Shown here: piece by piece, positions 8,919-34,584 of the stretch | Layout: each line of letters begins with the position of its first letter | How positions within the stretch are numbered: position 1 is the stretch's first letter | DNA from: a virus | Taxonomy: Duplodnaviria; Heunggongvirae; Uroviricota; Caudoviricetes | Virus record (IMG/VR): IMGVR_UViG_2526164598_000014 | Reading direction: 5' to 3' (one strand) | Length of the DNA stretch: 49,244 nucleotides | Notes under the pieces: generated by a model | Databases searched by the model: none | What the model saw: the letters and a program-made list of their open reading frames with translations, nothing else | What the model was told of the DNA's origin: nothing | Translations under genes and position numbers: made by a program

Positions 8919-9119
8919 TCAGGCAGCTTTGTTGTTCTGTTTACCAAGTTCTCTGGCAATCATTGCCGTCGTTCGTATTGCCCATTTATCGACATATTTC
9001 CCATCTTCCATTACAGGAAACATTTCTTCAGGCTTAACCATGCATTCCGATTGCAGCTTGCATCCATTGCATCGCTTGAATTGTCCACACCATTGATTTT
9101 TATCAATAGTCGTAGTCAT
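8919..9119 (-). CDS. ral: Lambda Ral restriction alleviation protein
   Basis: 66-aa ORF matching lambda Ral (MTTTIDKNQWCGQFKRCNGCKLQSECMVKPEEMF...). Confidence 0.95.
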   Translation of the reverse strand: MTTTIDKNQWCGQFKRCNGCKLQSECMVKPEEMFPVMEDGKYVDKWAIRTTAMIARELGKQNNKAA

Positions 9120-9264
9120 ACGGATAGTCCTGGTATTGTTCCATCACATCCTGAGCATGCTCTTCGAACTCTTTAGACTGGCCCCCTGAATCTCCAGACA
9201 ACCAATATCACTTAAATAAGTGATAGTCTTAATACTAGTTTTTAGACTAGTCATTGGAGAGCAG

Positions 9265-9630
9265 ATGATTGATGTCTTAGGACCGGAGAAACGCAGACGG
9301 CGTACTACACAGGAAAAGATCGCTATTGTTCAGCAGAGTTTTGAACCGGGAATGACGGTCTCCCTTGTTGCCCGGCAACACGGTGTGGCAGCCAGCCAGT
9401 TATTTCTCTGGCGCAAGCAATACCAGGAGGGAAGTCTTACTGCTGTGGCCGCAGGAGAGCAGGTCGTTCCTGCCTCTGAACTTGCTGCTGCCATGAAGCA
9501 GATTAAAGAACTCCAGCGCCTGCTCGGCAAAAAAACGATGGAAAATGAACTCCTTAAAGAAGCCGTTGAATACGGGCGTGCAAAAAAGTGGATAGCGCAC
9601 GCGCCCTTATTGCCCGGGGATGGGGAGTAA
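9265..9630 (+). CDS. insC: IS2 InsC (orfA, HTH transposase N-terminal protein)
   Basis: [41 protein letters not shown]... matches IS2 InsC as recalled. Confidence 0.9.
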
Positions 9631-10493
9631 GCTTAGTCAGCCGTTGTCTCCGGGTGTCGCGTGCGCAGTTGCACGTAATTCTCAGACGAACCGATGACTG
9701 GAAAGATGGTCGCCGCAGCCGTCACTCAGATGATACGGATGTGCTTCTCCGTATACACCATGTTATCGGAGAGCTGCCCACGTATGGTTATCGTCGGGTA
9801 TGGGCGCTGCTTCGCAGACAGGCCGAACTTGATGGTATGCCTGCGATCAATGCCAAACGTGTTTACCGGATCATGCGCCAGAATGCGCTGTTGCTTGAGC
9901 GAAAAACCGCTGTACCGCCATCGAAACGGGCACATACTGGCAAAGTGGCCGTGAAAGAAAGCAATCAACGATGGTGCTCTGACGGGTTCGAGTTCCGCTG
10001 TGATAACGGAGAAAAACTGCGAGTCACGTTCGCGCTGGACTGCTGTGACCGTGAGGCACTGCACTGGGCAGTCACTACGGGCGGCTTCGACAGTGAAACA
10101 GTACAGGACGTAATGCTGGGAGCGGTGGAACGCCGCTTCGGCAACGAGCTTCCGGCGTCTCCAGTAGAGTGGCTGACGGATAATGGTTCATGCTACCGGG
10201 CTAATGAAACACGGCAGTTTGCCCGGATGTTGGGGCTTGAACCGAAGAACACGGCGGTGCGGAGTCCGGAGAGTAACGGCATAGCAGAGAGCTTCGTGAA
10301 AACGATAAAGCGTGACTACATCAGTATCATGCCTAAACCAGACGGGTTAACGGCAGCAAAGAACCTTGCAGAGGCGTTCGAGCATTATAACGAATGGCAT
10401 CCGCATAGTGCACTGGGTTATCGCTCGCCACGGGAATATCTGCGGCAGCAGGCCAGTAATGGGTTAAGTGATAACAGGTGTCTGGAAATATAG
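9588..10493 (+). CDS. insD: IS2 InsD (orfB, DDE transposase catalytic part)
   Basis: 301-aa ORF matching IS2 InsD as recalled; overlaps insC in -1 frame as expected for the fusion transposase. Confidence 0.9.
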
Positions 10494-10668
10494 GGGCAAA
10501 TCCACTCTTCAAATTCTTCTTCCATATATCACCTTAAATAGTGGATTGCGGTAGTAAAGATTGTGCCTGTCTTTTAACCACATCAGGCTCGGTGGTTCTC
10601 GTGTACCCCTACAGCGAGAAATCGGATAAACTCTATTCACCCCTACAGAGAGCAAAAGAGAAACGCCG

Positions 10669-11250
10669 ATGAACAACTCATGGTGGCAGGAACTAATGCA
10701 TTTTTTCCTGCAAGGAATGACACTTAAACAGTTGATTCATATGCTAATCATCCTGATCATATTGATTATTGTTATGCCGGTAAGCGTAAAAGAATGGATA
10801 AACCTGCATAATCCAGAAATCCTTCCTTATTATTGGATGTATTACATCCTGTTGTTCTGCGTTAGCTATGTGCTTAACGGTGTTGTTAATTCCGCTTATC
10901 ACGCTGTGACTGAAAGAATTGAGGTATCCGCTGCTCAGAAGCGCAAATCTAAAGAAGAAAAATATGTGCAAGATTTGTTTGATTCGTTAACTCTTGGAGA
11001 AAGAGCGTATTTGGCATTCGCTGTAGCCGCGAATAACCAGCTAAAGACAGAAAAGGGAAGCCCTGAAGCAATCTCATTGCTCGAAAAAGGGCTTCTTATT
11101 CGGATACCTTCTGCTACTGGATATCCTGAAATCGACCGTTTTGTTATCCCGGAACGCTATAGAAATGAGTGCTACATTCGGTTTGCCGGGAAGGCAGACA
11201 GCCTTATGGATGAACTTATCGCTCAGGATAAGCATGGCAAAAACAAGTAA
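10669..11250 (+). CDS. sieB: SieB-like superinfection exclusion membrane protein, 193 aa
   Basis: Rightward gene embedded antisense in pL operon between ral and N as in lambda; two hydrophobic segments; AT-rich. Confidence 0.6.
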   Translation: MNNSWWQELMHFFLQGMTLKQLIHMLIILIILIIVMPVSVKEWINLHNPEILPYYWMYYILLFCVSYVLNGVVNSAYHAVTERIEVSAAQKRKSKEEKYVQDLFDSLTLGERAYLAFAVAANNQLKTEKGSPEAISLLEKGLLIRIPSATGYPEIDRFVIPERYRNECYIRFAGKADSLMDELIAQDKHGKNK

Positions 11251-11266
11251 TTAGCAAATGAATTTA

Positions 11267-11539
11267 TCATCTCGCCGTCAGTTGTTTTGATTTCCGGTAG
11301 CCTGCCGCGTAAAGAGCTACGTTCGGAAGACAAGTTGAACCTTCATATTTTCTGGTCAACGTTGTCAGAGTTATCACTTCTGCTCTCATTGCTGGTTTGC
11401 GCTTGCATTGCAAGACCACTCGTGAAGGGGTTGGCCTGTGTAGCTTGTCGGAGCTGATCGCCTCCTGACTTTGCAGATTTGCGCGACGAGCTCTACGGCG
11501 AGAAGCTGCGGTGCCTTTAAATTCTGTTTTTCTGGACAT
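11267..11539 (-). CDS. N: N-type transcription antiterminator, non-lambda allele, 90 aa from ATG 11537-11539
   Basis: Arginine-rich motif near N-terminus (TAASRRRARRANLQ), strong RBS GGGAGG 5 nt upstream, position right of pL/nutL; longer 114-aa ORF in track lacks RBS. Confidence 0.7.
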   Translation of the reverse strand: MSRKTEFKGTAASRRRARRANLQSQEAISSDKLHRPTPSRVVLQCKRKPAMRAEVITLTTLTRKYEGSTCLPNVALYAAGYRKSKQLTAR

Positions 11540-11564
11540 GGATTCCTCCCGAATAAACTTTGGC

Positions 11565-11612
11565 GATGCAATCTCGAAGCTCCTCCTGAGACGATTGCTT
11601 CGGCATTGCATC
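11565..11612 (-). promoter_or_regulatory. Long inverted repeat in N leader (GATGCAAT...ATTGCATC with inner GCTTCG/CGAAGC)
   Basis: Perfect 8-bp outer stem and inner stem read from sequence, 26 nt upstream of N start; analogous in position to the lambda N-leader structure. Confidence 0.4.
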
Positions 11613-11637
11613 CCACAGCTTATGTGGTTGGGTGATC

Positions 11638-11684
11638 TGGCTTTTCAGCCACGTAGTCGAGAGTCGACGTTGTTTAAAGAGCCT
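11638..11684 (-). promoter_or_regulatory. nutL: Putative nutL (boxA-like GGCTCTTTA and boxB hairpin TGGCT-GAAA-AGCCA)
   Basis: On the reverse strand, boxA-like element followed about 25 nt later by a 5-bp stem with GAAA-type loop. Confidence 0.45.
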
Positions 11685-11945
11685 GCCAGTCTGTTCCATT
11701 TGGCTTCCAGCGTCCTGCTGACGGTTAAATAGTACGATATGTACTTTACAAGATCAATACAATTTGTTGTAAGTTGGCGTGGTTTTTTATAACGCTTTGT
11801 ATTTAATAGTGTTGTTTTTTAGCGTGGATGTATTGCCTCGGCGATGTAAGGAGAGATCAGAATTGCGTGGTTTAGTGGGTTGCATCTATTTATTTTTCAA
11901 TAAATACAATTGGTTATGTGTTTTTAGGTGGGGCGATCGTGAGGC

Positions 11946-11977
11946 AAAGAAAACCCGGCGCTGAGGCCGGGTTTTTC
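11946..11977. terminator. Bidirectional intrinsic terminator closing the cI-proximal operon (tImm-like)
   Basis: Hairpin CCCGGC-GCTGAG-GCCGGG at 11954-11971 flanked by A-run and T-run; directly after stop of 258-aa gene. Confidence 0.65.
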
Positions 11978-12753
11978 TAGGCTACCAGAGACTCAATCCA
12001 AGAGTCTCTGGTATGGAATGGCAACACTCGTGCGGTATCATTAAATAGTAGTGATAGTTGCTGTAGCTCAGGTGTTAACCCATCGCTGTCAACTATTACA
12101 AATCTATTGTTTATGTCAGGAACGACCTGACTTAAGTCAACAATCTTCCCAACTGTTGAGTGGGCAGTATTCCATCCCTTACTGCTGGCAAGGCTTACCG
12201 TAAACCCGCGTTTTGGTGGTATTAGTCGAGACTCATTCCTTAGCGTTAACGGAACAGTAATGTTATGCCCACTAATACCTTTCACTTTTTCCTTTAAGGC
12301 TAGTCGCTTCCCAAGCCCTGCTGATTTTAAGTAACTGATTACACATTTTTCGAACTTATCGTCTTTGACCTCAGCATACCAATCAGCAGTTTGGGCGGAT
12401 GCAAGAATCCCACCACGAATAACATTTGCAGTTACCTGTCCAACGGACGACTCATCTGCCCACGCAGATATCTCTCCAGAATCATTTAATGAAATTCCTT
12501 GCGAAGCGAGTGATGACCTAATCAGATCAATTTTCTTTTTAGTCAGGTGGATGCCGCGTGATTCAATATTCATCAATGTATCGCAGTAGTCTGTAACCCT
12601 ATACTGACCACTCATCTCTTGAACGAATACACTTATCTGCTCACAATCATCGTAGTATGTGAAGGGACTAATAACGCGCAGCAACGTGTCGCTCATTGGG
12701 TGGCATTCAAACCCGAGCTTAGATATGACTGTTGAACACGTTACATTTCCCAT
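11977..12753 (-). CDS. Hypothetical protein, 258 aa, second gene of operon in the rexAB slot
   Basis: ATG at 12751-12753; overlaps upstream 180-aa gene by 13 nt; AT-rich; no motif I can recognise. Confidence 0.7.
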   Translation of the reverse strand: MGNVTCSTVISKLGFECHPMSDTLLRVISPFTYYDDCEQISVFVQEMSGQYRVTDYCDTLMNIESRGIHLTKKKIDLIRSSLASQGISLNDSGEISAWADESSVGQVTANVIRGGILASAQTADWYAEVKDDKFEKCVISYLKSAGLGKRLALKEKVKGISGHNITVPLTLRNESRLIPPKRGFTVSLASSKGWNTAHSTVGKIVDLSQVVPDINNRFVIVDSDGLTPELQQLSLLFNDTARVLPFHTRDSWIESLVA

Positions 12754-13283
12754 GATAGCTGACCTGATTTATCTTGATTAGGTAAAGGTGGGCTGCCTTC
12801 ATATATGATATTAAGCGCCTCGCAAAAATAATTCCAGTAGCCAAAAAAATCATCTGGCTTGATGTTCGTTTCAAGCTTAAGTGCAATTTCTTCCCCAGCT
12901 GATTCGAAGTACATGTGATAGTGAGGACCTCGAGCCACCTCAACAAAATCTGGATGGTTCACTATAGATTTATTACGGTGTGGCTTGTTATCCGCAGGGT
13001 ACGGGTCAAGCGCGTAAATGCGCCTGTCATGAAGAAACATCACAAATGAAATCTTCACTATATCCACCCCTTCAACGATAGGAGGACGCCAGTGAAGCAT
13101 AAATCTTATGCCTGTGATTGGGTTGCCAATTTCATCAAAAGCTTTGAGATCCAATTTAAACCAGATTGGGGTTCGTCCCTCACTTCCGGTCCATGTAACT
13201 CCGCTAAAAGTTACTTTTTTCAAGCGAGTAATAGCTTGGTCAACCTCTTTCTGGGTAGGCTTAAAGTCGCCTTTTTTAGCCAC
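12741..13283 (-). CDS. Hypothetical protein, 180 aa, first gene of operon in the rexAB slot
   Basis: GTG at 13281-13283 (first in-frame ATG only at codon 62); 46 bp downstream of cI stop; no motif I can recognise. Confidence 0.6.
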   Translation of the reverse strand: MAKKGDFKPTQKEVDQAITRLKKVTFSGVTWTGSEGRTPIWFKLDLKAFDEIGNPITGIRFMLHWRPPIVEGVDIVKISFVMFLHDRRIYALDPYPADNKPHRNKSIVNHPDFVEVARGPHYHMYFESAGEEIALKLETNIKPDDFFGYWNYFCEALNIIYEGSPPLPNQDKSGQLSWEM

Positions 13284-13329
13284 TGATTCGTATCACCATG
13301 AAAGTTATTGTTAATACCTGTGCTTCTTG

Positions 13330-13983
13330 TCACCCAAACGTCTCTTCAGGCCACTGACTAGCGATAACTTTCCCCACAACGGAACAACTCTCATTGCATG
13401 GGATCATTGGGTATTGTGGGTTTAGTGGCTGTAGAAACACCTGACCGCTATCCCTGATCAGTTTCTTGAAGGTAAACTCATCACCACCAAGTCTGGCTAT
13501 ACAGAAATCGCCTGGCTCAACAGCCTGCTCAGGGTCAACCAGAATTAACATCCCGTCAGGAAAGCTGGGCTTGGAACCTGTTGGTGCGGTCATTGAGTTA
13601 CCTTCAACCTCAAGCCAGAATGCAGAGTCACTGGCTTTTTTGGTTGTGCTTACCAATCTCTCCGCATCGCCTTTGGTAAAGGTTCTGAGTTCTGGAGAGA
13701 ACATCCCAGCCTGAACATGAGAAAAAACAGGGTACTCATATTGTTTTTTAACTGGGGCCGATGAGTATTCGCCAACAGGTGAAAATGTCCCGTCGTGGTT
13801 GAATGATATGTTATCAATACCAAGGTATTTAAACACCACACCAATATCACTAAGAGATGGATGACGAGATCCGCGCAACCAGTGTCCAATCCCACCCTGC
13901 GTCATACCTAGCTCTTCGGCTAACTTCTCTTGAGTTATGCCGAGCTCTTTCATTCTGGATCTAGCCAGTTCATACCATTTCAT
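13330..13983 (-). CDS. cI: CI-type repressor (N-terminal HTH, C-terminal LexA-like S24 autopeptidase domain)
   Basis: HTH segment ([20 protein letters not shown]) and C-terminal domain with GNSM and K motifs; divergent from cro across an operator region; start taken at MKWYEL (ATG 13981-13983) with AAGGA 7 nt upstream, alternative ATG at 13987-13989. Confidence 0.85.
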
Positions 13984-13989
13984 TTTCAT

Positions 13990-14099
13990 GTCCTTATTAT
14001 TACGCTTTGTACTGGAACCATCCATGCACAATGTGTATTTTTACTTGTATTCGTAAAGTACATATTGTATTTTTTATTCGTGTTTACTATGGAGGGCAT
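13990..14099. promoter_or_regulatory. OR region: divergent pRM/pR promoters and operators between cI and cro
   Basis: 110-bp AT-rich spacer with repeated TACA-N3-TGTA / TACAA-N-TTGTA palindromes (e.g. GTAAAGTACATATTGTA). Confidence 0.55.
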
Positions 14100-14315
14100 A
14101 TGAGCAACCTACGAAAATATCGAGAGTCACTGAATATCTCTCAAACAACACTTGCTAAGGCAGTTGGATGCACACAGGGAGCTATCGGACATTGGGAATC
14201 TGGTCGTCGCTTCCCAGACCTTAAAACATGCCGTGCTCTTGTTGCGTGCCTAAACAAGTTAGGCGCAAAAGTCAGTCTTGATGACGTGTTCCCGCCGGAA
14301 CACAAAGCCGCTTAA
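14100..14315 (+). CDS. cro: Cro-type HTH repressor, 71 aa
   Basis: ATG at 14100 preceded by GGAGGG; HTH (ISQTTLAKAVGCTQGAIGHWESG); longer TTG-start ORF in track is an artefact. Confidence 0.8.
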   Translation: MSNLRKYRESLNISQTTLAKAVGCTQGAIGHWESGRRFPDLKTCRALVACLNKLGAKVSLDDVFPPEHKAA

Positions 14316-14325
14316 TAAGCGGATC

Positions 14326-14371
14326 CGCTCTTTGTAACAACGGACATTCGTCCTACGTCGCTGAAAAGCGA
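14326..14371 (+). promoter_or_regulatory. nutR: Putative nutR (boxA CGCTCTTT and boxB hairpin TCGCT-GAAA-AGCGA)
   Basis: boxA-like octamer at 14326-14333 and GAAA-loop hairpin at 14358-14371, between cro and cII. Confidence 0.5.
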
Positions 14372-14456
14372 GTTCCAAGATATCTGACCAACTAAGGCCA
14401 TATGCGTTTCCACGCATACCTTTCAACTAACTATTCACTATTGGAAATCTTAAGAA

Positions 14457-14753
14457 ATGGAAAGAACAAGTTACAGCAAACTATCACAGCGTGACGTTGA
14501 TCGCGCAGAAACAGATTTACTTATCAATCTGTCAGCTATTACCCAGCGCGGTCTGGCAAAGATGATTGGCTGTCATGAATCGAAGATAAGCAGAACGGAC
14601 TGGAGATTTATTGCTTCGGTCTTGTGTGCTTTCGGAATGGCATCAGACATCAGTCCGATTAGCAGGGCTTTTAAGTATGCGCTTGATGGACTCACCAATA
14701 AAAAACGCCCGGCGGCAACCGAGCGTTCTGAACAAATCCAGATGGAGTTCTGA
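14457..14753 (+). CDS. cII: CII transcriptional activator
   Basis: 98-aa ORF; C-terminal half matches lambda CII as recalled (…LTNKKRPAATERSEQIQMEF). Confidence 0.9.
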   Translation: MERTSYSKLSQRDVDRAETDLLINLSAITQRGLAKMIGCHESKISRTDWRFIASVLCAFGMASDISPISRAFKYALDGLTNKKRPAATERSEQIQMEF

Positions 14754-14775
14754 GGTCATTACTGGATCTATCAAC
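14697..14775 (-). ncRNA. oop: oop antisense RNA
   Basis: Reverse strand matches lambda oop (GTTGATAGATCCAGTAATGACCTCAGAACTCCATCTGGATTTGTTCAGAACGCTCGGTTGCCGCCGGGCGTTTTTTATT) including its terminator. Confidence 0.8.
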
Positions 14776-14785
14776 AGGAGTCATT

Positions 14786-15684
14786 ATGACAAATACAGCA
14801 AAAATACTCAACTTCGGCAGAGGTAACTTTGCCGGACAGGAGCGTAATGTGGCAGATCTCGATGATGGTTACGCCAGACTATCAAATATGCTGCTTGAGG
14901 CTTATTCGGGCGCAGATCTGACCAAGCGACAGTTTAAAGTGCTGCTTGCCATTCTGCGTAAAACCTATGGGTGGAATAAACCAATGGACAGAATCACCGA
15001 TTCTCAACTTAGCGAGATTACAAAGTTACCTGTCAAACGGTGCAATGAAGCCAAGTTAGAACTCGTCAGAATGAATATTATCAAGCAGCAAGGCGGCATG
15101 TTTGGACCAAATAAAAACATCTCAGAATGGTGTATCCCTCAAAACGAGGGAAAATCCCCTAAAACGAGGGATAAAACATCCCTCAAATTGGGGGATTGCT
15201 ATCCCTCAAAACAGGGGGACACAAAAGACACTATTACAAAAGAAAAAGAAAAGATTATTCGTCCGAGAATTCTGGCGAATCCTCTGACCAGCCAGAAAAC
15301 GACCTTTCTGTGGTGAAACCGGATGCTGCAATTCAGAGCGGCAGCAAGTGGGGGACAGCAGAAGACCTGACCGCCGCAGAGTGGATGTTTGACATGGTGA
15401 AGACCATCGCGCCATCAGCCAGAAAACCGAATTTTGCAGGGTGGGCTAACGATATCCGCCTGATGCGTGAACGTGACGGACGTAACCACCGCGACATGTG
15501 CGTGCTGTTCCGCTGGGCATGCCAGGACAACTTCTGGTCCGGTAACGTGCTTAGCCCGGCCAAACTCCGCGACAAGTGGACCCAGCTCGAAATCAACCGT
15601 AACAAGCAACAGGCAGTCGTGACAGCCAGCAAACCAAAACTCGACCTGACAAACACAGACTGGATTTACGGGGTGGATCTATGA
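14786..15684 (+). pseudogene. O: Lambda O replication initiator, frameshifted (1-nt deletion in A-tract around 15238-15253)
   Basis: N-terminal 150 aa in frame 1 (ends 15316) and lambda-O C-terminal 140 aa in the next frame (to 15684); total span 899 nt, one short of 900. Confidence 0.85.
15134..15219. repeat. ori: ori-lambda iterons (four ~18-bp O-binding repeats ATCCCTCAAAACGAGGGA and variants)
   Basis: Four tandem near-palindromic repeats inside O, followed by the AT-rich tract. Confidence 0.85.
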
Positions 15685-16382
15685 AAAACATCGCCGCACA
15701 GATGGTTAACTTTGACCGTGAGCAGATGCGTCGGATCGCCAACAACATGCCGGAACAGTACGACGAAAAGCCGCAGGTACAGCAGGTAGCGCAGATCATC
15801 AACGGTGTGTTCAGCCAGTTACTGGCAACTTTCCCGGCGAGTCTGGCTAACCGTGACCAGAACGAACTGAACGAAATCCGCCGCCAGTGGGTTCTGGCTT
15901 TCCGGGAAAACGGGATCACCACAATGGAACAGGTTAACGCAGGAATGCGCGTAGCCCGTCGGCAGAATCGACCATTTCTGCCATCACCCGGGCAGTTTGT
16001 TGCATGGTGCCGGGAAGAAGCATCCGTTATCGCCGGACTGCCAAACGTCAGCGAGCTGGTTGATATGGTTTACGAGTATTGCCGGAAGCGAGGCCTGTAT
16101 CCGGATGCGGAGTCTTATCCGTGGAAATCAAACGCGCACTACTGGCTGGTTACCAACCTGTATCAGAACATGCGGGCCAATGCGCTTACTGATGCGGAAT
16201 TACGCCGTAAGGCCGCAGATGAGCTTGTCCATATGACTGCGAGAATTAACCGTGGTGAGGCGATCCCTGAACCAGTAAAACAACTTCCTGTCATGGGCGG
16301 TAGACCTCTAAATCGTGCACAGGCTCTGGCGAAGATCGCAGAAATCAAAGCTAAGTTCGGACTGAAAGGAGCAAGTGTATGA
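15681..16382 (+). CDS. P: Lambda P replication protein (helicase loader)
   Basis: 233-aa ORF matching lambda P as recalled. Confidence 0.95.
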   Translation: MKNIAAQMVNFDREQMRRIANNMPEQYDEKPQVQQVAQIINGVFSQLLATFPASLANRDQNELNEIRRQWVLAFRENGITTMEQVNAGMRVARRQNRPFLPSPGQFVAWCREEASVIAGLPNVSELVDMVYEYCRKRGLYPDAESYPWKSNAHYWLVTNLYQNMRANALTDAELRRKAADELVHMTARINRGEAIPEPVKQLPVMGGRPLNRAQALAKIAEIKAKFGLKGASV

Positions 16383-16669
16383 CGGGCAAAGAGGCAATTA
16401 TTCATTACCTGGGGACGCATAATAGCTTCTGTGCGCCGGACGTTGCCGCGCTAACAGGCGCAACAGTAACCAGCATAAATCAGGCCGCGGCTAAAATGGC
16501 ACGGGCAGGTCTTCTGGTTATCGAAGGTAAGGTCTGGCGAACGGTGTATTACCGGTTTGCTACCAGGGAAGAACGGGAAGGAAAGATGAGCACGAACCTG
16601 ATTTTTAAGGAGTGTCGCCAGAGTGCCGCGATGAAACGGGTATTGGCGGTATATGGAGTTAAAAGATGA
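16379..16669 (+). CDS. ren: Lambda Ren
   Basis: 96-aa ORF matching lambda Ren as recalled. Confidence 0.9.
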   Translation: MTGKEAIIHYLGTHNSFCAPDVAALTGATVTSINQAAAKMARAGLLVIEGKVWRTVYYRFATREEREGKMSTNLIFKECRQSAAMKRVLAVYGVKR

Positions 16670-16742
16670 CCATCTACATCACTGAGCTAATAACAGGCCT
16701 GCTGGTAATCGCAGGCCTTTTTATTTGGGGGAGAGGGAAGTC

Positions 16743-17183
16743 ATGAAAAAACTAACCTTTGAAATTCGATCTCCAGCACATCAGCAAAACGCTATTCACG
16801 CAGTACAGCAAATTCTTCCAGACCCAACCAAACCAATCGTAGTAACCATTCAGGAACGCAACCGCAGCTTAGACCAAAACCGAAAGCTTTGGGCTTGCCT
16901 TGGTGACGTTTCGCGTCAGGTTGAATGGCATGGTCGCTGGCTGGATGCAGAAAGCTGGAAGTGTGTGTTTACCGCAGCATTAAAGCAGCAGGACGTTGTT
17001 CCTAACCTTGCCGGGAATGGCTTTGTGGTAATAGGACAGTCAACCAGCAGGATGCGTGTAAGCGAATTTGCGGAGCTATTAGAGCTTATACAGGCATTCG
17101 GTACAGAACGTGGCGTTAAGTGGTCAGACGAAGCGCAACTGGCTCTCGAATGGAAAGCGCGATGGGGAGATCGGGCTGCATGA
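16743..17183 (+). CDS. ninB: NinB (Orf) recombination mediator, 146 aa
   Basis: Starts MKKLTFEIRSPAHQQNAIHAVQQILPDPTKP as lambda NinB. Confidence 0.9.
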   Translation: MKKLTFEIRSPAHQQNAIHAVQQILPDPTKPIVVTIQERNRSLDQNRKLWACLGDVSRQVEWHGRWLDAESWKCVFTAALKQQDVVPNLAGNGFVVIGQSTSRMRVSEFAELLELIQAFGTERGVKWSDEAQLALEWKARWGDRAA

Positions 17184-26789: not shown

Positions 26790-26988
26790 GAGGTTGCCCT
26801 GTATTCAGTGTCGCTGATTTGTATTGTCTGAAGTTGTTTTTACGTTAAGTTGATGCAGATCAATTAATACGATACCTGCGTCATAATTGATTATTTGACG
26901 TGGTTTGATGGCGTAGATGCACGTTGTGACATGTAGATGATAATTATTATCATTTTGCGGGTCCTTTCCGGCGATCCGACAGGTTACG

Positions 26989-34188: not shown

Positions 34189-34584
34189 ATGACGAAAGAT
34201 GAACTGATTGCCCGTCTCCGTTCGCTGGGTGAGCAACTGAACCGTGATGTCAGCCTGACGGGGACGAAAGAAGAACTGGCGCTCCGTGTGGCAGAGCTGG
34301 AAGAGGAGCTTGATGACACGGATGACGCAGCCGGTCAGGACACGTCTGTCAGCCCGGAAAATGTGCTGACCGTGCATGAAAATGAGGTGGTATCAGCGCA
34401 GCCGGATACCGTGACTGATACGGCTGAACTGGTCACGGTCGTGGCACTGGTGACGCTGCATACTGATGCACTTCACGCCACGCGGGATGAACCTGTGGCA
34501 TTTGTGCTGCCGGGAACGGCGTTTCGTGTCTCTGCCGGTATGGCAGCCGAAATGACAGAGCGCGGCCTGGCCAGAATGCAATAA
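34189..34584 (+). CDS. FI: DNA packaging protein FI
   Basis: ATG at 34189 after GGAGG; MTKDELIARLRSLGEQLNRDVSLTGTKEELALRVAEL... as lambda gpFI. Confidence 0.9.
   Translation: MTKDELIARLRSLGEQLNRDVSLTGTKEELALRVAELEEELDDTDDAAGQDTSVSPENVLTVHENEVVSAQPDTVTDTAELVTVVALVTLHTDALHATRDEPVAFVLPGTAFRVSAGMAAEMTERGLARMQ

What the first reader, a model, noticed from the sequence alone, without database searches (positions are those of the whole stretch)
11267..11732. Non-lambda N allele with its own nutL and a long leader hairpin
The antiterminator between sieB and the rex-slot operon is not lambda N but an arginine-rich 90-aa protein. Upstream on the same strand are a boxA-like element, a boxB-like hairpin with a GAAA loop (11638-11651), and a long inverted repeat (11565-11612) just 5' of the start codon. 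nutR between cro and cII has a matching boxB type (TCGCT-GAAA-AGCGA). The immunity and antitermination specificity have therefore been swapped as one module into the lambda backbone.
Basis: partly seen in the sequence, partly recalled or inferred. Interest (0 to 1): 0.35.

Follow-up and report, generated by a model that had tools for sequence, protein, structure and literature searches.

The report
VT2-Sakai-type N antiterminator and nut sites
This is the well-known N antiterminator allele of Shiga-toxin phages such as VT2-Sakai, with its matching RNA recognition sites and the usual structured leader, sitting in a largely lambda-like prophage; it is real but ordinary and already annotated in public records.

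Summary
Window 11267-11539(-) encodes a 90-aa N-family protein (Pfam N_peptide, E 3e-32). It is 100% identical to N of VT2-Sakai and many Stx phages, and N plus leader occurs in 759 of 5426 complete E. coli genomes.

A composite boxA-spacer-boxB motif occurs exactly twice (0 expected by chance): after pL (11683-11638, -) and after cro (14326-14371, +). Both boxB hairpins have a GAAA tetraloop.

The long inverted repeat (11565-11612) is not special to this allele. It is the N-leader stem shared by all lambdoid N genes examined, including lambda, with compensatory changes across nine alleles. In lambda this structured leader modulates N translation through RNase III.

The "one swapped module" reading is only partly right. 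The same N, nutL and nutR boxB occur with at least five different immunity regions. Homology breaks at the pL transcript start (~11721) and at nutR boxA (14325).

Verdict: already known, low interest. One minor open point is that this N class uses a true GNRA tetraloop boxB, not the pentaloop of lambda, P22 and H-19B. I found no experimental study of this.

The parts
11267..11539 (-). N gene (90 aa plus stop), VT2-Sakai-type antiterminator. [quoted passage not shown]
   Evidence: PF25694, E 3.4e-32; 100% aa identity to VT2-Sakai, YYZ-2008, 2851, 1717 and the PA series
11545..11550 (-). Shine-Dalgarno GGGAGG, 5 nt before the N AUG
   Evidence: It is conserved in all 34 distinct leader sequences.
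11558..11618 (-). Long N-leader hairpin. The perfect core is 11565-11612. The base is CUGUGG/CCAAAG with a bulged G at 11564. It is homologous to the lambda N-leader stem.
   Evidence: -28.4 kcal/mol, z -4.4; covariation across 9 N alleles: 95.8% paired, 5 compensatory pairs
11613..11627 (-). Small hairpin CCACA-uaagc-UGUGG. It shares its 3' arm with the base of the long stem, so the two pairings are alternatives.
   Evidence: An equivalent hairpin is present in all 10 alleles folded.
11638..11651 (-). nutL boxB, UGGCU-GAAA-AGCCA (5-bp stem, GNRA tetraloop)
   Evidence: It is invariant in all 80 IMG/VR loci with this N.
11656..11668 (-). nutL spacer hairpin GUCGA-cuc-UCGAC (H-19B-type spacer dyad). 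It is followed by the UACG linker.
   Evidence: (stem kept, loop varies CUC/ACUC/ACAC/AUC)
11670..11683 (-). nutL boxA, GGCUCUUUAAACAA (rrn-like CUUUA core)
   Evidence: The boxA consensus is taken from PMC2724277.
11729..11757 (-). pL: -35 TTGATC, 17-nt spacer, -10 TACTAT. The transcript start is inferred at about 11722.
   Evidence: Mapped from the VT2-Sakai annotation and from alignment with the lambda pL start. The simple promoter scan did not find it.
14326..14340 (+). nutR boxA, CGCUCUUUGUAACAA
14342..14353 (+). nutR spacer hairpin GGAC-auuc-GUCC, identical to that of H-19B nutR
14358..14371 (+). nutR boxB, UCGCU-GAAA-AGCGA. Its stem differs from nutL by a compensatory G-C to C-G change.

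Best explanation
The region is the N-antitermination module of the VT2-Sakai class of lambdoid phages, carried in a mostly lambda-like prophage.

Proposed mechanism:
1. Transcription from pL (start about 11722) first makes NUTL RNA: boxA, a small spacer hairpin, and a boxB hairpin with a GAAA tetraloop. Transcription from pR makes the equivalent NUTR just after cro.
2. [quoted passage not shown]
3. N then recruits NusA, and through boxA probably NusB/S10.
4. Through its C-terminal segment N converts RNA polymerase to a termination-resistant form. The polymerase then reads through tR1 and the leftward terminators.
5. The long hairpin between nutL and the ribosome-binding site is the N-leader stem common to all lambdoid N genes. 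By analogy with lambda, it is the structured element through which RNase III processing modulates N translation and its autorepression from nutL.

Shown here: the identity of the protein, the positions and conservation of the RNA elements, co-variation of the boxB loop with the N arginine-rich motif, and covariation in the leader stem.

Inferred, not shown: binding, host-factor use, antitermination activity and RNase III cleavage.
For: Protein:
- Pfam N_peptide E 3.4e-32, above the curated cut-off.
- 100% identical to annotated N of VT2-Sakai and many Stx phages.
- 57-58% identical to H-19B and 933W N, with an identical C-terminal 21 residues.
- Weak but detectable relation to lambda N, covering the arginine-rich motif and the following region.

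Public annotation and spread:
- The VT2-Sakai record AP000422 annotates putative nutL, nutR, pL and tR1 at the homologous positions.
- The leader differs from VT2-Sakai by one base.
- N plus leader covers at least 80% of the query in 759 of 5426 complete E. coli genomes. PGAP names it "transcriptional antitermination N peptide".

nut sites:
- The composite motif occurs twice, with 0 expected.
- nutL and nutR boxB stems differ by a compensatory pair.
- All 80 IMG/VR loci with this N keep GAAA in both sites. Their spacer hairpins vary only in the loop.
- The boxB loop tracks the arginine-rich motif. It is GAAA with GTAASRRRARRA (window) and GSAAGRRRERRA (g341c). It is GCAA (nutL) and GAAA (nutR) in phiSTEC1589. 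It is GACAA with the H-19B, 933W and P22-type motifs, and GAAGA in lambda nutL.
- H-19B nutR has two hairpins, and NusA and Rho bind its spacer (PMC3526286).

Leader stem:
- z = -4.4.
- Across 9 alleles including lambda and a Vibrio phage: 95.8% of cells paired against 82% in shuffles (0 of 500 reach it), 5 pairs with double changes, and a covariation score of 0.306 against at most 0.109 when partners are slid.
- Lambda precedent: N and Nus factors bound at NutL repress N translation, and the intervening leader is highly structured (PMC5725501 and its refs 28 and 29).
Against: - No experiment on the VT2-Sakai-type N or its nut sites was found in the searchable literature. Function is therefore inferred from homology.
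- The boxB loop is a 4-nt GNRA tetraloop, not the pentaloop through which lambda and P22 N are described as recognising boxB (PMC9074901). Details of the N-NusA-boxB assembly may therefore differ.
- For the window's nutL alone, the thermodynamic optimum pairs boxA with the 3' half of boxB (-14.1 against -11.4 kcal/mol). This alternative vanishes in close relatives with a different first boxA base.
- In this allele the stem base CUGUGG/CCAAAG has a G-A mismatch, and CUGUGG pairs better with an upstream CCACA. The exact base of the functional stem is therefore uncertain.
- RNase III cleavage is untested.
- The simple promoter scan did not report pL.
Confidence: 0.85

Rival explanations
1. One reading: N, nutL, the immunity region (oL/pL, cI, cro) and nutR arrived together as one indivisible specificity cassette replacing the lambda one.
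For: In the window, all of these parts resemble VT2-Sakai. 11267-11973 is 93% identical and 13332-14793 is 96% identical. The same pairing is the commonest one, found in 51 of 83 pL classes and 53 of 78 cro classes.
Against: - The same N, leader and GAAA nutR occur with six pL/operator classes and five cro classes.
- Homology breaks sharply at about 11721 and 14325.
- Lambda-like patches lie inside the substituted region.
- The rex-slot genes differ from VT2-Sakai and 2G7b. They occur 100% identical next to another immunity region in L067.
Confidence: 0.2
2. The long leader hairpin is an attenuator, a terminator or a protein-binding site specific to this allele, and not the homologue of the lambda RNase III-sensitive leader stem.
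For: The hairpin is strong (-28.4 kcal/mol) and lies directly 5' of the ribosome-binding site. RNase III cleavage has not been tested for this allele.
Against: - No U-run follows it, and the terminator scan does not report it.
- It sits at the same distance from the AUG (17-23 nt) and has the same CUUUGG...CCAAAG flanks and bulged purine as in lambda, H-19B, P22-type, g341c, mEpX2 and a Vibrio phage.
- The upper stem covaries across these alleles.
Confidence: 0.1
3. The leader is coding. It would encode either the 60-aa ORF 11517-11699(-) or an N-terminally extended 114-aa N starting at 11611.
For: Both ORFs exist. RefSeq genomes often annotate a second "hypothetical protein" here.
Against: - Neither start has a Shine-Dalgarno sequence comparable with GGGAGG at 11550-11545.
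- Curated phage records call the 90-aa N.
- A natural leader variant with a 1-nt deletion in the hairpin loop (the 189-nt leader in L022 and L051) would break the 114-aa frame.
- The sequence is explained by conserved RNA elements.
Confidence: 0.03

Closest known systems
N, nutL and nutR of prophage VT2-Sakai (Sp5) and related Stx phages (AP000422, AP005153, NC_011356 and others)
   Same: The N protein is 100% identical. The leader from nutL to the Shine-Dalgarno sequence differs by one base. nutR has the same boxA, spacer hairpin and GAAA boxB. The pL/operator and cI/cro type is the same (93-96% identical).
   Different: Here the module sits in a lambda-type head, tail and replication backbone, not in a short-tailed Stx phage. 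It lies next to sieB and different rex-slot genes.
N and nut sites of phage H-19B (and 933W), the experimentally studied Stx-phage N system
   Same: Both have the N-family fold-less basic protein with an identical C-terminal 21 aa and a shared LHRPT.SR motif. The nut architecture is the same: spacer hairpin, UACG linker, then a 5-bp boxB. The nutR spacer hairpin GGACAUUCGUCC is identical. PMC3526286 documents two hairpins in H-19B nutR.
   Different: H-19B N is 127 aa, with a 29-aa central insert and a different arginine-rich-motif tail (RLKAKALANG). Its boxB loops are GACAA pentaloops. Its nutL has no good boxA, whereas this nutL has an rrn-like boxA.
Lambda N, nutL/nutR and the RNase III-modulated N leader
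   Same: Gene order is the same: pL, nutL, structured leader, N, and cro, nutR, tR1, cII. Both have boxA plus a boxB with a GNRA-type loop. The leader stem is homologous, with a CUUUGG/CCAAAG base and a bulged purine. The lambda autoregulation model is taken from PMC5725501.
   Different: The proteins are only 35% identical over 63 aa. Lambda boxB is a pentaloop (GAAGA or GAAAA) with a different stem (GCCCU/AGGGC). Lambda nut sites have no spacer hairpin. The lambda leader stem is about twice as long (119 against 61 nt).
P22 gp24 and its boxB
   Same: The C-terminal LP.VALYAAGYRKSKQ.TAR segment, the Pfam family, and the leader architecture are shared.
   Different: The arginine-rich motif is different (GNAKTRRHERRRKLAIE). 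The boxB loop is a GACAA pentaloop. There is no spacer hairpin.

Membership tests
Lambdoid N antiterminator (Pfam PF25694 N_peptide; P22 gp24 / H-19B N family) | Sequence match to the family profile above the curated threshold | tested here: met
   111.3 bits against a cut-off of 27.9, E 3.4e-32, covering residues 1-90
Lambdoid N antiterminator (Pfam PF25694 N_peptide; P22 gp24 / H-19B N family) | N-terminal arginine-rich RNA-binding motif | tested here: met
   Residues 9-22, GTAASRRRARRANL, align with the arginine-rich motifs of H-19B, P22-type and lambda N.
Lambdoid N antiterminator (Pfam PF25694 N_peptide; P22 gp24 / H-19B N family) | C-terminal RNA-polymerase-interacting segment | tested here: met
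   CLPNVALYAAGYRKSKQLTAR is identical to H-19B N. The H-19B N C-terminal domain is the RNAP-binding domain (PMC4499122). This is conservation only; binding was not tested.
Lambdoid N antiterminator (Pfam PF25694 N_peptide; P22 gp24 / H-19B N family) | First gene of the pL operon, preceded by nutL | tested here: met
   Synteny with lambda, VT2-Sakai, 933W and H-19B
Lambdoid N antiterminator (Pfam PF25694 N_peptide; P22 gp24 / H-19B N family) | nut-dependent antitermination activity | not testable with these tools
   Requires reporter or in vitro transcription assays.
nut site (boxA, spacer, boxB) | boxA close to CGCUCUUUA(ACAA) | tested here: met
   nutL is GGCUCUUUAAACAA and nutR is CGCUCUUUGUAACAA. 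The consensus is from PMC2724277.
nut site (boxA, spacer, boxB) | boxB hairpin with a GNRA-like loop shortly downstream of boxA | tested here: met
   Both have 5-bp stems with a GAAA loop. The stem pair covaries between nutL and nutR. Caveat: the loop is a tetraloop, not the pentaloop of lambda and P22.
nut site (boxA, spacer, boxB) | Two copies, one early in each of the pL and pR transcripts, both in sense orientation | tested here: met
   Exactly two hits, at 11640-11682(-) and 14327-14369(+), with 0 expected
nut site (boxA, spacer, boxB) | boxB type matched to the N allele | tested here: met
   GAAA or GCAA with the VT2-Sakai and g341c arginine-rich motifs. GACAA with the H-19B and P22 motifs. 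GAAGA with lambda.
H-19B-type nut (dyad symmetry in the spacer) | Small hairpin between boxA and boxB | tested here: met
   GUCGAcucUCGAC in nutL and GGACauucGUCC in nutR. The stems are conserved and the loops vary in relatives. The functional role described for H-19B (Neely and Friedman 2000) is recalled from memory and was not retrieved.
Lambda-type N leader with RNase III-sensitive stem | Long stem between nutL and the N ribosome-binding site, homologous to lambda's | tested here: met
   Same flanks and distance to the AUG. Covariation across 9 alleles including lambda.
Lambda-type N leader with RNase III-sensitive stem | Cleavage by RNase III and an effect on N translation | not testable with these tools
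   Known for lambda (Wilson et al. 1997 and 2002, as cited in PMC5725501). No data for this allele.
Lambda N allele proper | Close sequence identity to lambda N and a lambda-type boxB (GCCCUGAARAAGGGC) | tested here: not met
   35% identity over 63 aa. The boxB stem and loop are different.

The most novel reading that the evidence does not exclude
Two details may not have been described.

(1) The VT2-Sakai and g341c class of N proteins naturally uses a true GNRA tetraloop boxB (GAAA, and GCAA in phiSTEC1589 nutL). The lambda, P22 and H-19B systems use a pentaloop with one extruded base. N-NusA assembly on boxB may therefore differ in this very common class.

(2) In all lambdoid N leaders examined, from lambda to a Vibrio phage, the segment CUUUGG can pair with either of two CCAAAG copies. 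Pairing with the upstream copy gives a small hairpin. Pairing with the invariant downstream copy, next to the ribosome-binding site, closes the long stem. Compensatory changes are seen only for the upstream pairing. This suggests a conserved structural switch in N translational control.
Probability: 0.2. Interest if true: 0.4.

Novelty: already known. Interest (0 to 1): 0.14.

Why it matters
The finding mainly serves correct annotation. It identifies which N/nut specificity class this prophage carries, and so which other lambdoid phages could trans-activate it or be trans-activated by it. This class is shared with major Stx2 and Stx1 phages, where N-dependent read-through leads to Q and toxin expression.

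It also gives a clean illustration that N/nut and immunity are separate exchange units, with junctions at the pL transcript start and at nutR boxA.

The tetraloop boxB of this abundant class could be a simple natural test case for how much of N-NusA-boxB recognition depends on the extruded loop base.

Tried and rejected
- Rfam scan of 9000-17000 at E up to 1: only chance-level hits, and no family for nut sites or the N leader.
- PDB sequence search with N: no hit even at E 10.
- Genome-contig scan for relatives: only 4 loci, of little use.
- Idea that boxA pairs with the 3' half of boxB as a conserved alternative NUT structure. It is the MFE for the window's nutL and marginally for nutR. It disappears in close relatives with UGCU or AGCU boxA or a GCAA loop. 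Rejected as incidental.
- Covariation within the closely related set of 34 distinct leaders. There was too little variation in the long stem to be informative, so I compared distant N alleles instead.
- MAFFT alignment of the small upstream hairpin. The 5' arms were not in register because loop lengths differ, so the evidence for that hairpin rests on per-sequence folds only.
- Literature: searches for VT2-Sakai-type N, for nut characterisation and for natural tetraloop boxB found nothing relevant. Wilson et al. 2002 (PMC126142) is not held. The Neely and Friedman papers on H-19B nut were not retrievable and are cited from memory only.
- The simple promoter scan did not report pL. The terminator scan did not report the terminator at 11945-11975 that VT2-Sakai annotates.

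Full report
**1. What is in the sequence**

- **N gene.** On the minus strand, 11539-11267 is a 90-aa ORF (MSRKTEFKGTAASRRRARRANLQ...CLPNVALYAAGYRKSKQLTAR). A GGGAGG Shine-Dalgarno sequence lies at 11550-11545.
- **Neighbours.** The ORF lies between a convergent sieB (10669-11250, Pfam SieB) and a leftward promoter region. Beyond that region are a two-gene "rex-slot" operon, cI, cro and cII.
- **Elements upstream of N on the same strand:**
  - boxA GGCUCUUUAAACAA (11683-11670)
  - a small hairpin GUCGAcucUCGAC (11668-11656)
  - a UACG linker
  - boxB UGGCU-GAAA-AGCCA (11651-11638)
  - a small hairpin CCACAuaagcUGUGG (11627-11613)
  - a long hairpin, with core arms 11612-11597 and 11580-11565 and extended limits 11618-11558
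- **Fold energies.** The 61-nt hairpin folds at -28.4 kcal/mol, z = -4.4. The whole 193-nt leader folds at -69.7 kcal/mol, z = -4.1.
- **nutR.** Between cro and cII lie boxA CGCUCUUUGUAACAA (14326-14340), hairpin GGACauucGUCC (14342-14353), UACG, and boxB UCGCU-GAAA-AGCGA (14358-14371).
- **Chance.** The composite motif occurs twice in 49 kb, at these two places and in the sense orientation of pL and pR. None is expected in shuffles.
- **Hairpin support within the phage.** The two boxB stems differ by a compensatory G-C to C-G pair.

**2. What the protein is**

- Pfam N_peptide (PF25694) matches over the full length at E 3.4e-32.
- tblastn against phage records shows 100% amino-acid identity to the annotated N of VT2-Sakai, the Stx1-converting phage AP005153/NC_004913, YYZ-2008, 2851, 1717, the PA series and lambda-like phages such as 2G7b.
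- The VT2-Sakai record has carried "N; similar to 933W L0080 and H-19B N", "putative N-utilization leftward", "putative N-utilization rightward", pL and tR1 features at the homologous positions since its deposition.
- The window's leader differs from VT2-Sakai's by one base, in the apical loop of the long hairpin.
- N plus leader is present at 80% or more coverage in 759 of 5426 complete E. coli genomes. PGAP names it "transcriptional antitermination N peptide".
- H-19B and 933W N (127 aa) are 57-58% identical over the aligned part. They share the last 21 residues exactly and carry a 29-aa central insert.
- Lambda N is only distantly related, at 35% over 63 aa covering the arginine-rich motif and the following region.

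**3. nut specificity**

- All 80 IMG/VR loci that encode this N have UGGCUGAAAAGCCA in nutL. Where the flank reaches that far, they have UCGCUGAAAAGCGA in nutR.
- The nutL spacer hairpin keeps its stem. Its loop varies (CUC, ACUC, ACAC, AUC), and one variant extends the stem.
- Across N alleles the boxB loop follows the arginine-rich motif:

| N allele | boxB loop |
|---|---|
| Window type and Salmonella phage g341c (GSAAGRRRERRAALQ) | GAAA |
| phiSTEC1589 (N 86% identical) | GCAA in nutL, GAAA in nutR |
| H-19B, 933W, mEp234, and P22-type phages | GACAA |
| Lambda (nutL) | GAAGA |

- This class therefore uses a genuine GNRA tetraloop. Lambda and P22 N are described as recognising a pentaloop (PMC9074901).
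- The two-hairpin layout (spacer hairpin, UACG, boxB) is that of H-19B. The nutR spacer hairpin is identical to H-19B's.
- The H-19B nutR is documented to contain two hairpins, with NusA and Rho binding the spacer (PMC3526286).
- My recollection that Neely and Friedman (2000) called the spacer hairpin a "reducer", and found H-19B N independent of boxA, NusB and S10, could not be checked in the held library.
- Unlike H-19B nutL, this nutL has a good, rrn-like boxA (CUUUA core; consensus from PMC2724277).

**4. The leader hairpin**

- I compared N leaders of nine alleles that are not alignable in their apical parts. They were the window, phiSTEC1589, H-19B, ST104 (P22 type), g341c, mEpX2, lambda, mEp234 and Vibrio phage IKEMa6-1.
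- All nine have a stem with the same features:
  - The 5' base is CUUUGG (CUGUGG here).
  - The 3' base is an invariant CCAAAG, 17-23 nt before the AUG.
  - A bulged purine follows the sixth pair.
  - The upper helix covaries: GAUGCAAU/AUUGCAUC here, GGUGUGUG/CACACACC in lambda, and GGUGAAUGCA/UGUAUUCACC in H-19B.
- On the MAFFT alignment, 95.8% of cells pair, against 82% in shuffles (0 of 500 reach the observed value) and 38-53% when partners are slid.
- Five pairs show double changes. The covariation score is 0.306, against 0.083 shuffled and at most 0.109 slid.
- The hairpin is therefore the family-wide N-leader stem, not a feature of this allele.
- In lambda, N and Nus factors bound at NutL repress N translation, and the highly structured intervening leader is the subject of the RNase III work of Wilson et al. 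1997 and 2002 (as summarised in PMC5725501).
- That the stem here is an RNase III substrate is an inference by homology.

**5. Module structure**

- The window is a prophage in integrated order. Lambda att (27724) corresponds to window 1331, and the cos join is at 26988/26989.
- 28.7 of 49.2 kb aligns to lambda at about 98%. This includes head, tail, recombination and O-P genes.
- Relative to lambda, the substituted stretch runs from 10649 to 14690. It contains lambda-like patches at 11851-11978 (the end of the rex region and its terminator) and 13330-13740 (the cI C-terminal domain).
- In the 80 related loci, homology to the window often stops at about 11721 (the pL transcript start, where the leader begins with the conserved CAGCAGGA) and resumes at 14325 (nutR boxA).
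- Clustering the 150 nt upstream of the leader gives six pL/operator classes of 51, 12, 7, 5, 4 and 4 loci. Clustering the 3' part of cro gives five classes of 53, 12, 6, 4 and 3 loci. All are joined to the same N, nutL and GAAA nutR.
- The window's combination is the commonest one and is the VT2-Sakai type.
- N/nut and immunity are therefore neighbouring but separately exchangeable units.

**6. Things considered and set aside**

- Rfam has no matching family, and the PDB has no sequence relative.
- A thermodynamically favoured pairing of boxA with the 3' half of boxB in the window's nutL is not conserved in close relatives.
- The 60-aa and 114-aa ORFs over the leader are best explained as non-coding. 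A natural 1-nt deletion variant in the hairpin loop would break the longer frame.

**7. Verdict**

The feature is real and correctly located, and its main interpretation (a non-lambda N with cognate nutL and nutR) is right. It is already known and annotated, and it is very common. Two points remain mildly interesting:
- This class uses a natural GNRA-tetraloop boxB, for which I found no experimental study.
- The CUUUGG segment of all N leaders can pair with either of two CCAAAG copies, and compensatory changes are seen only for the upstream pairing.

Noticed in passing
window 9174-10503: An IS2 element (InsC and InsD ORFs at 9220-9630 and 9588-10493) is inserted with a 5-bp target duplication, CTCTT (9169-9173 and 10504-10508). 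The site is the lambda orf28 / ral-sieB interval (lambda 34336-34341).
   Followed up: partly
window 14786-15684: The replication gene O is about 98% identical to lambda O. It has a 1-nt deletion in an A-run near 15242, which splits it into two overlapping ORFs (176 and 162 aa). This is either a pseudogene in a decaying prophage or a homopolymer sequencing error.
   Followed up: partly
window 11977-13283 (-): A two-gene operon lies in the rex slot downstream of cI. It encodes a DUF6978-like protein (180 aa) and a DUF1828 protein (258 aa). They hit the PADLOC candidate defence system PDC-M24A (E 4e-4) and PDC-M24B (E 5e-7) weakly, in A-B order. The same genes are 100% identical in locus L067, next to a different immunity region. 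This is probably a mobile defence cargo.
   Followed up: partly
window 11613-11627 and 11558-11563; also lambda L090:35382-35518 and other N leaders: In all 10 N leaders folded, the CUUUGG at the 5' base of the long stem can also pair with an upstream CCAAAG-like copy to form a small hairpin. Where CUUUGG has changed (CUGUGG here, GUUUGG in ST104 and E. albertii), the upstream copy carries the compensating change. The downstream CCAAAG next to the Shine-Dalgarno sequence stays invariant and mismatched. This may be a conserved alternative pairing.
   Followed up: partly
window 11517-11699 (-): A 60-aa ORF lies over nutL boxB and the leader hairpin. It is probably what many RefSeq genomes annotate as a hypothetical protein beside N, and it is likely a spurious call.
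   Followed up: no
L095 (phage HK140) 508-782: The HK140 N leader carries what looks like a duplicated or interrupted leader. A complete mEpX2-type stem is followed by about 200 nt containing a small annotated ORF, and a second CCAAAG then precedes N.
   Followed up: no
window 13330-13740 and 11851-11978: The cI C-terminal (S24 peptidase) half is 95% identical to lambda, and the terminator region after the rex slot is 91% identical. The cI N-terminal DNA-binding half and the operators are not lambda-like. These conserved linkers probably serve as recombination joints.
   Followed up: no
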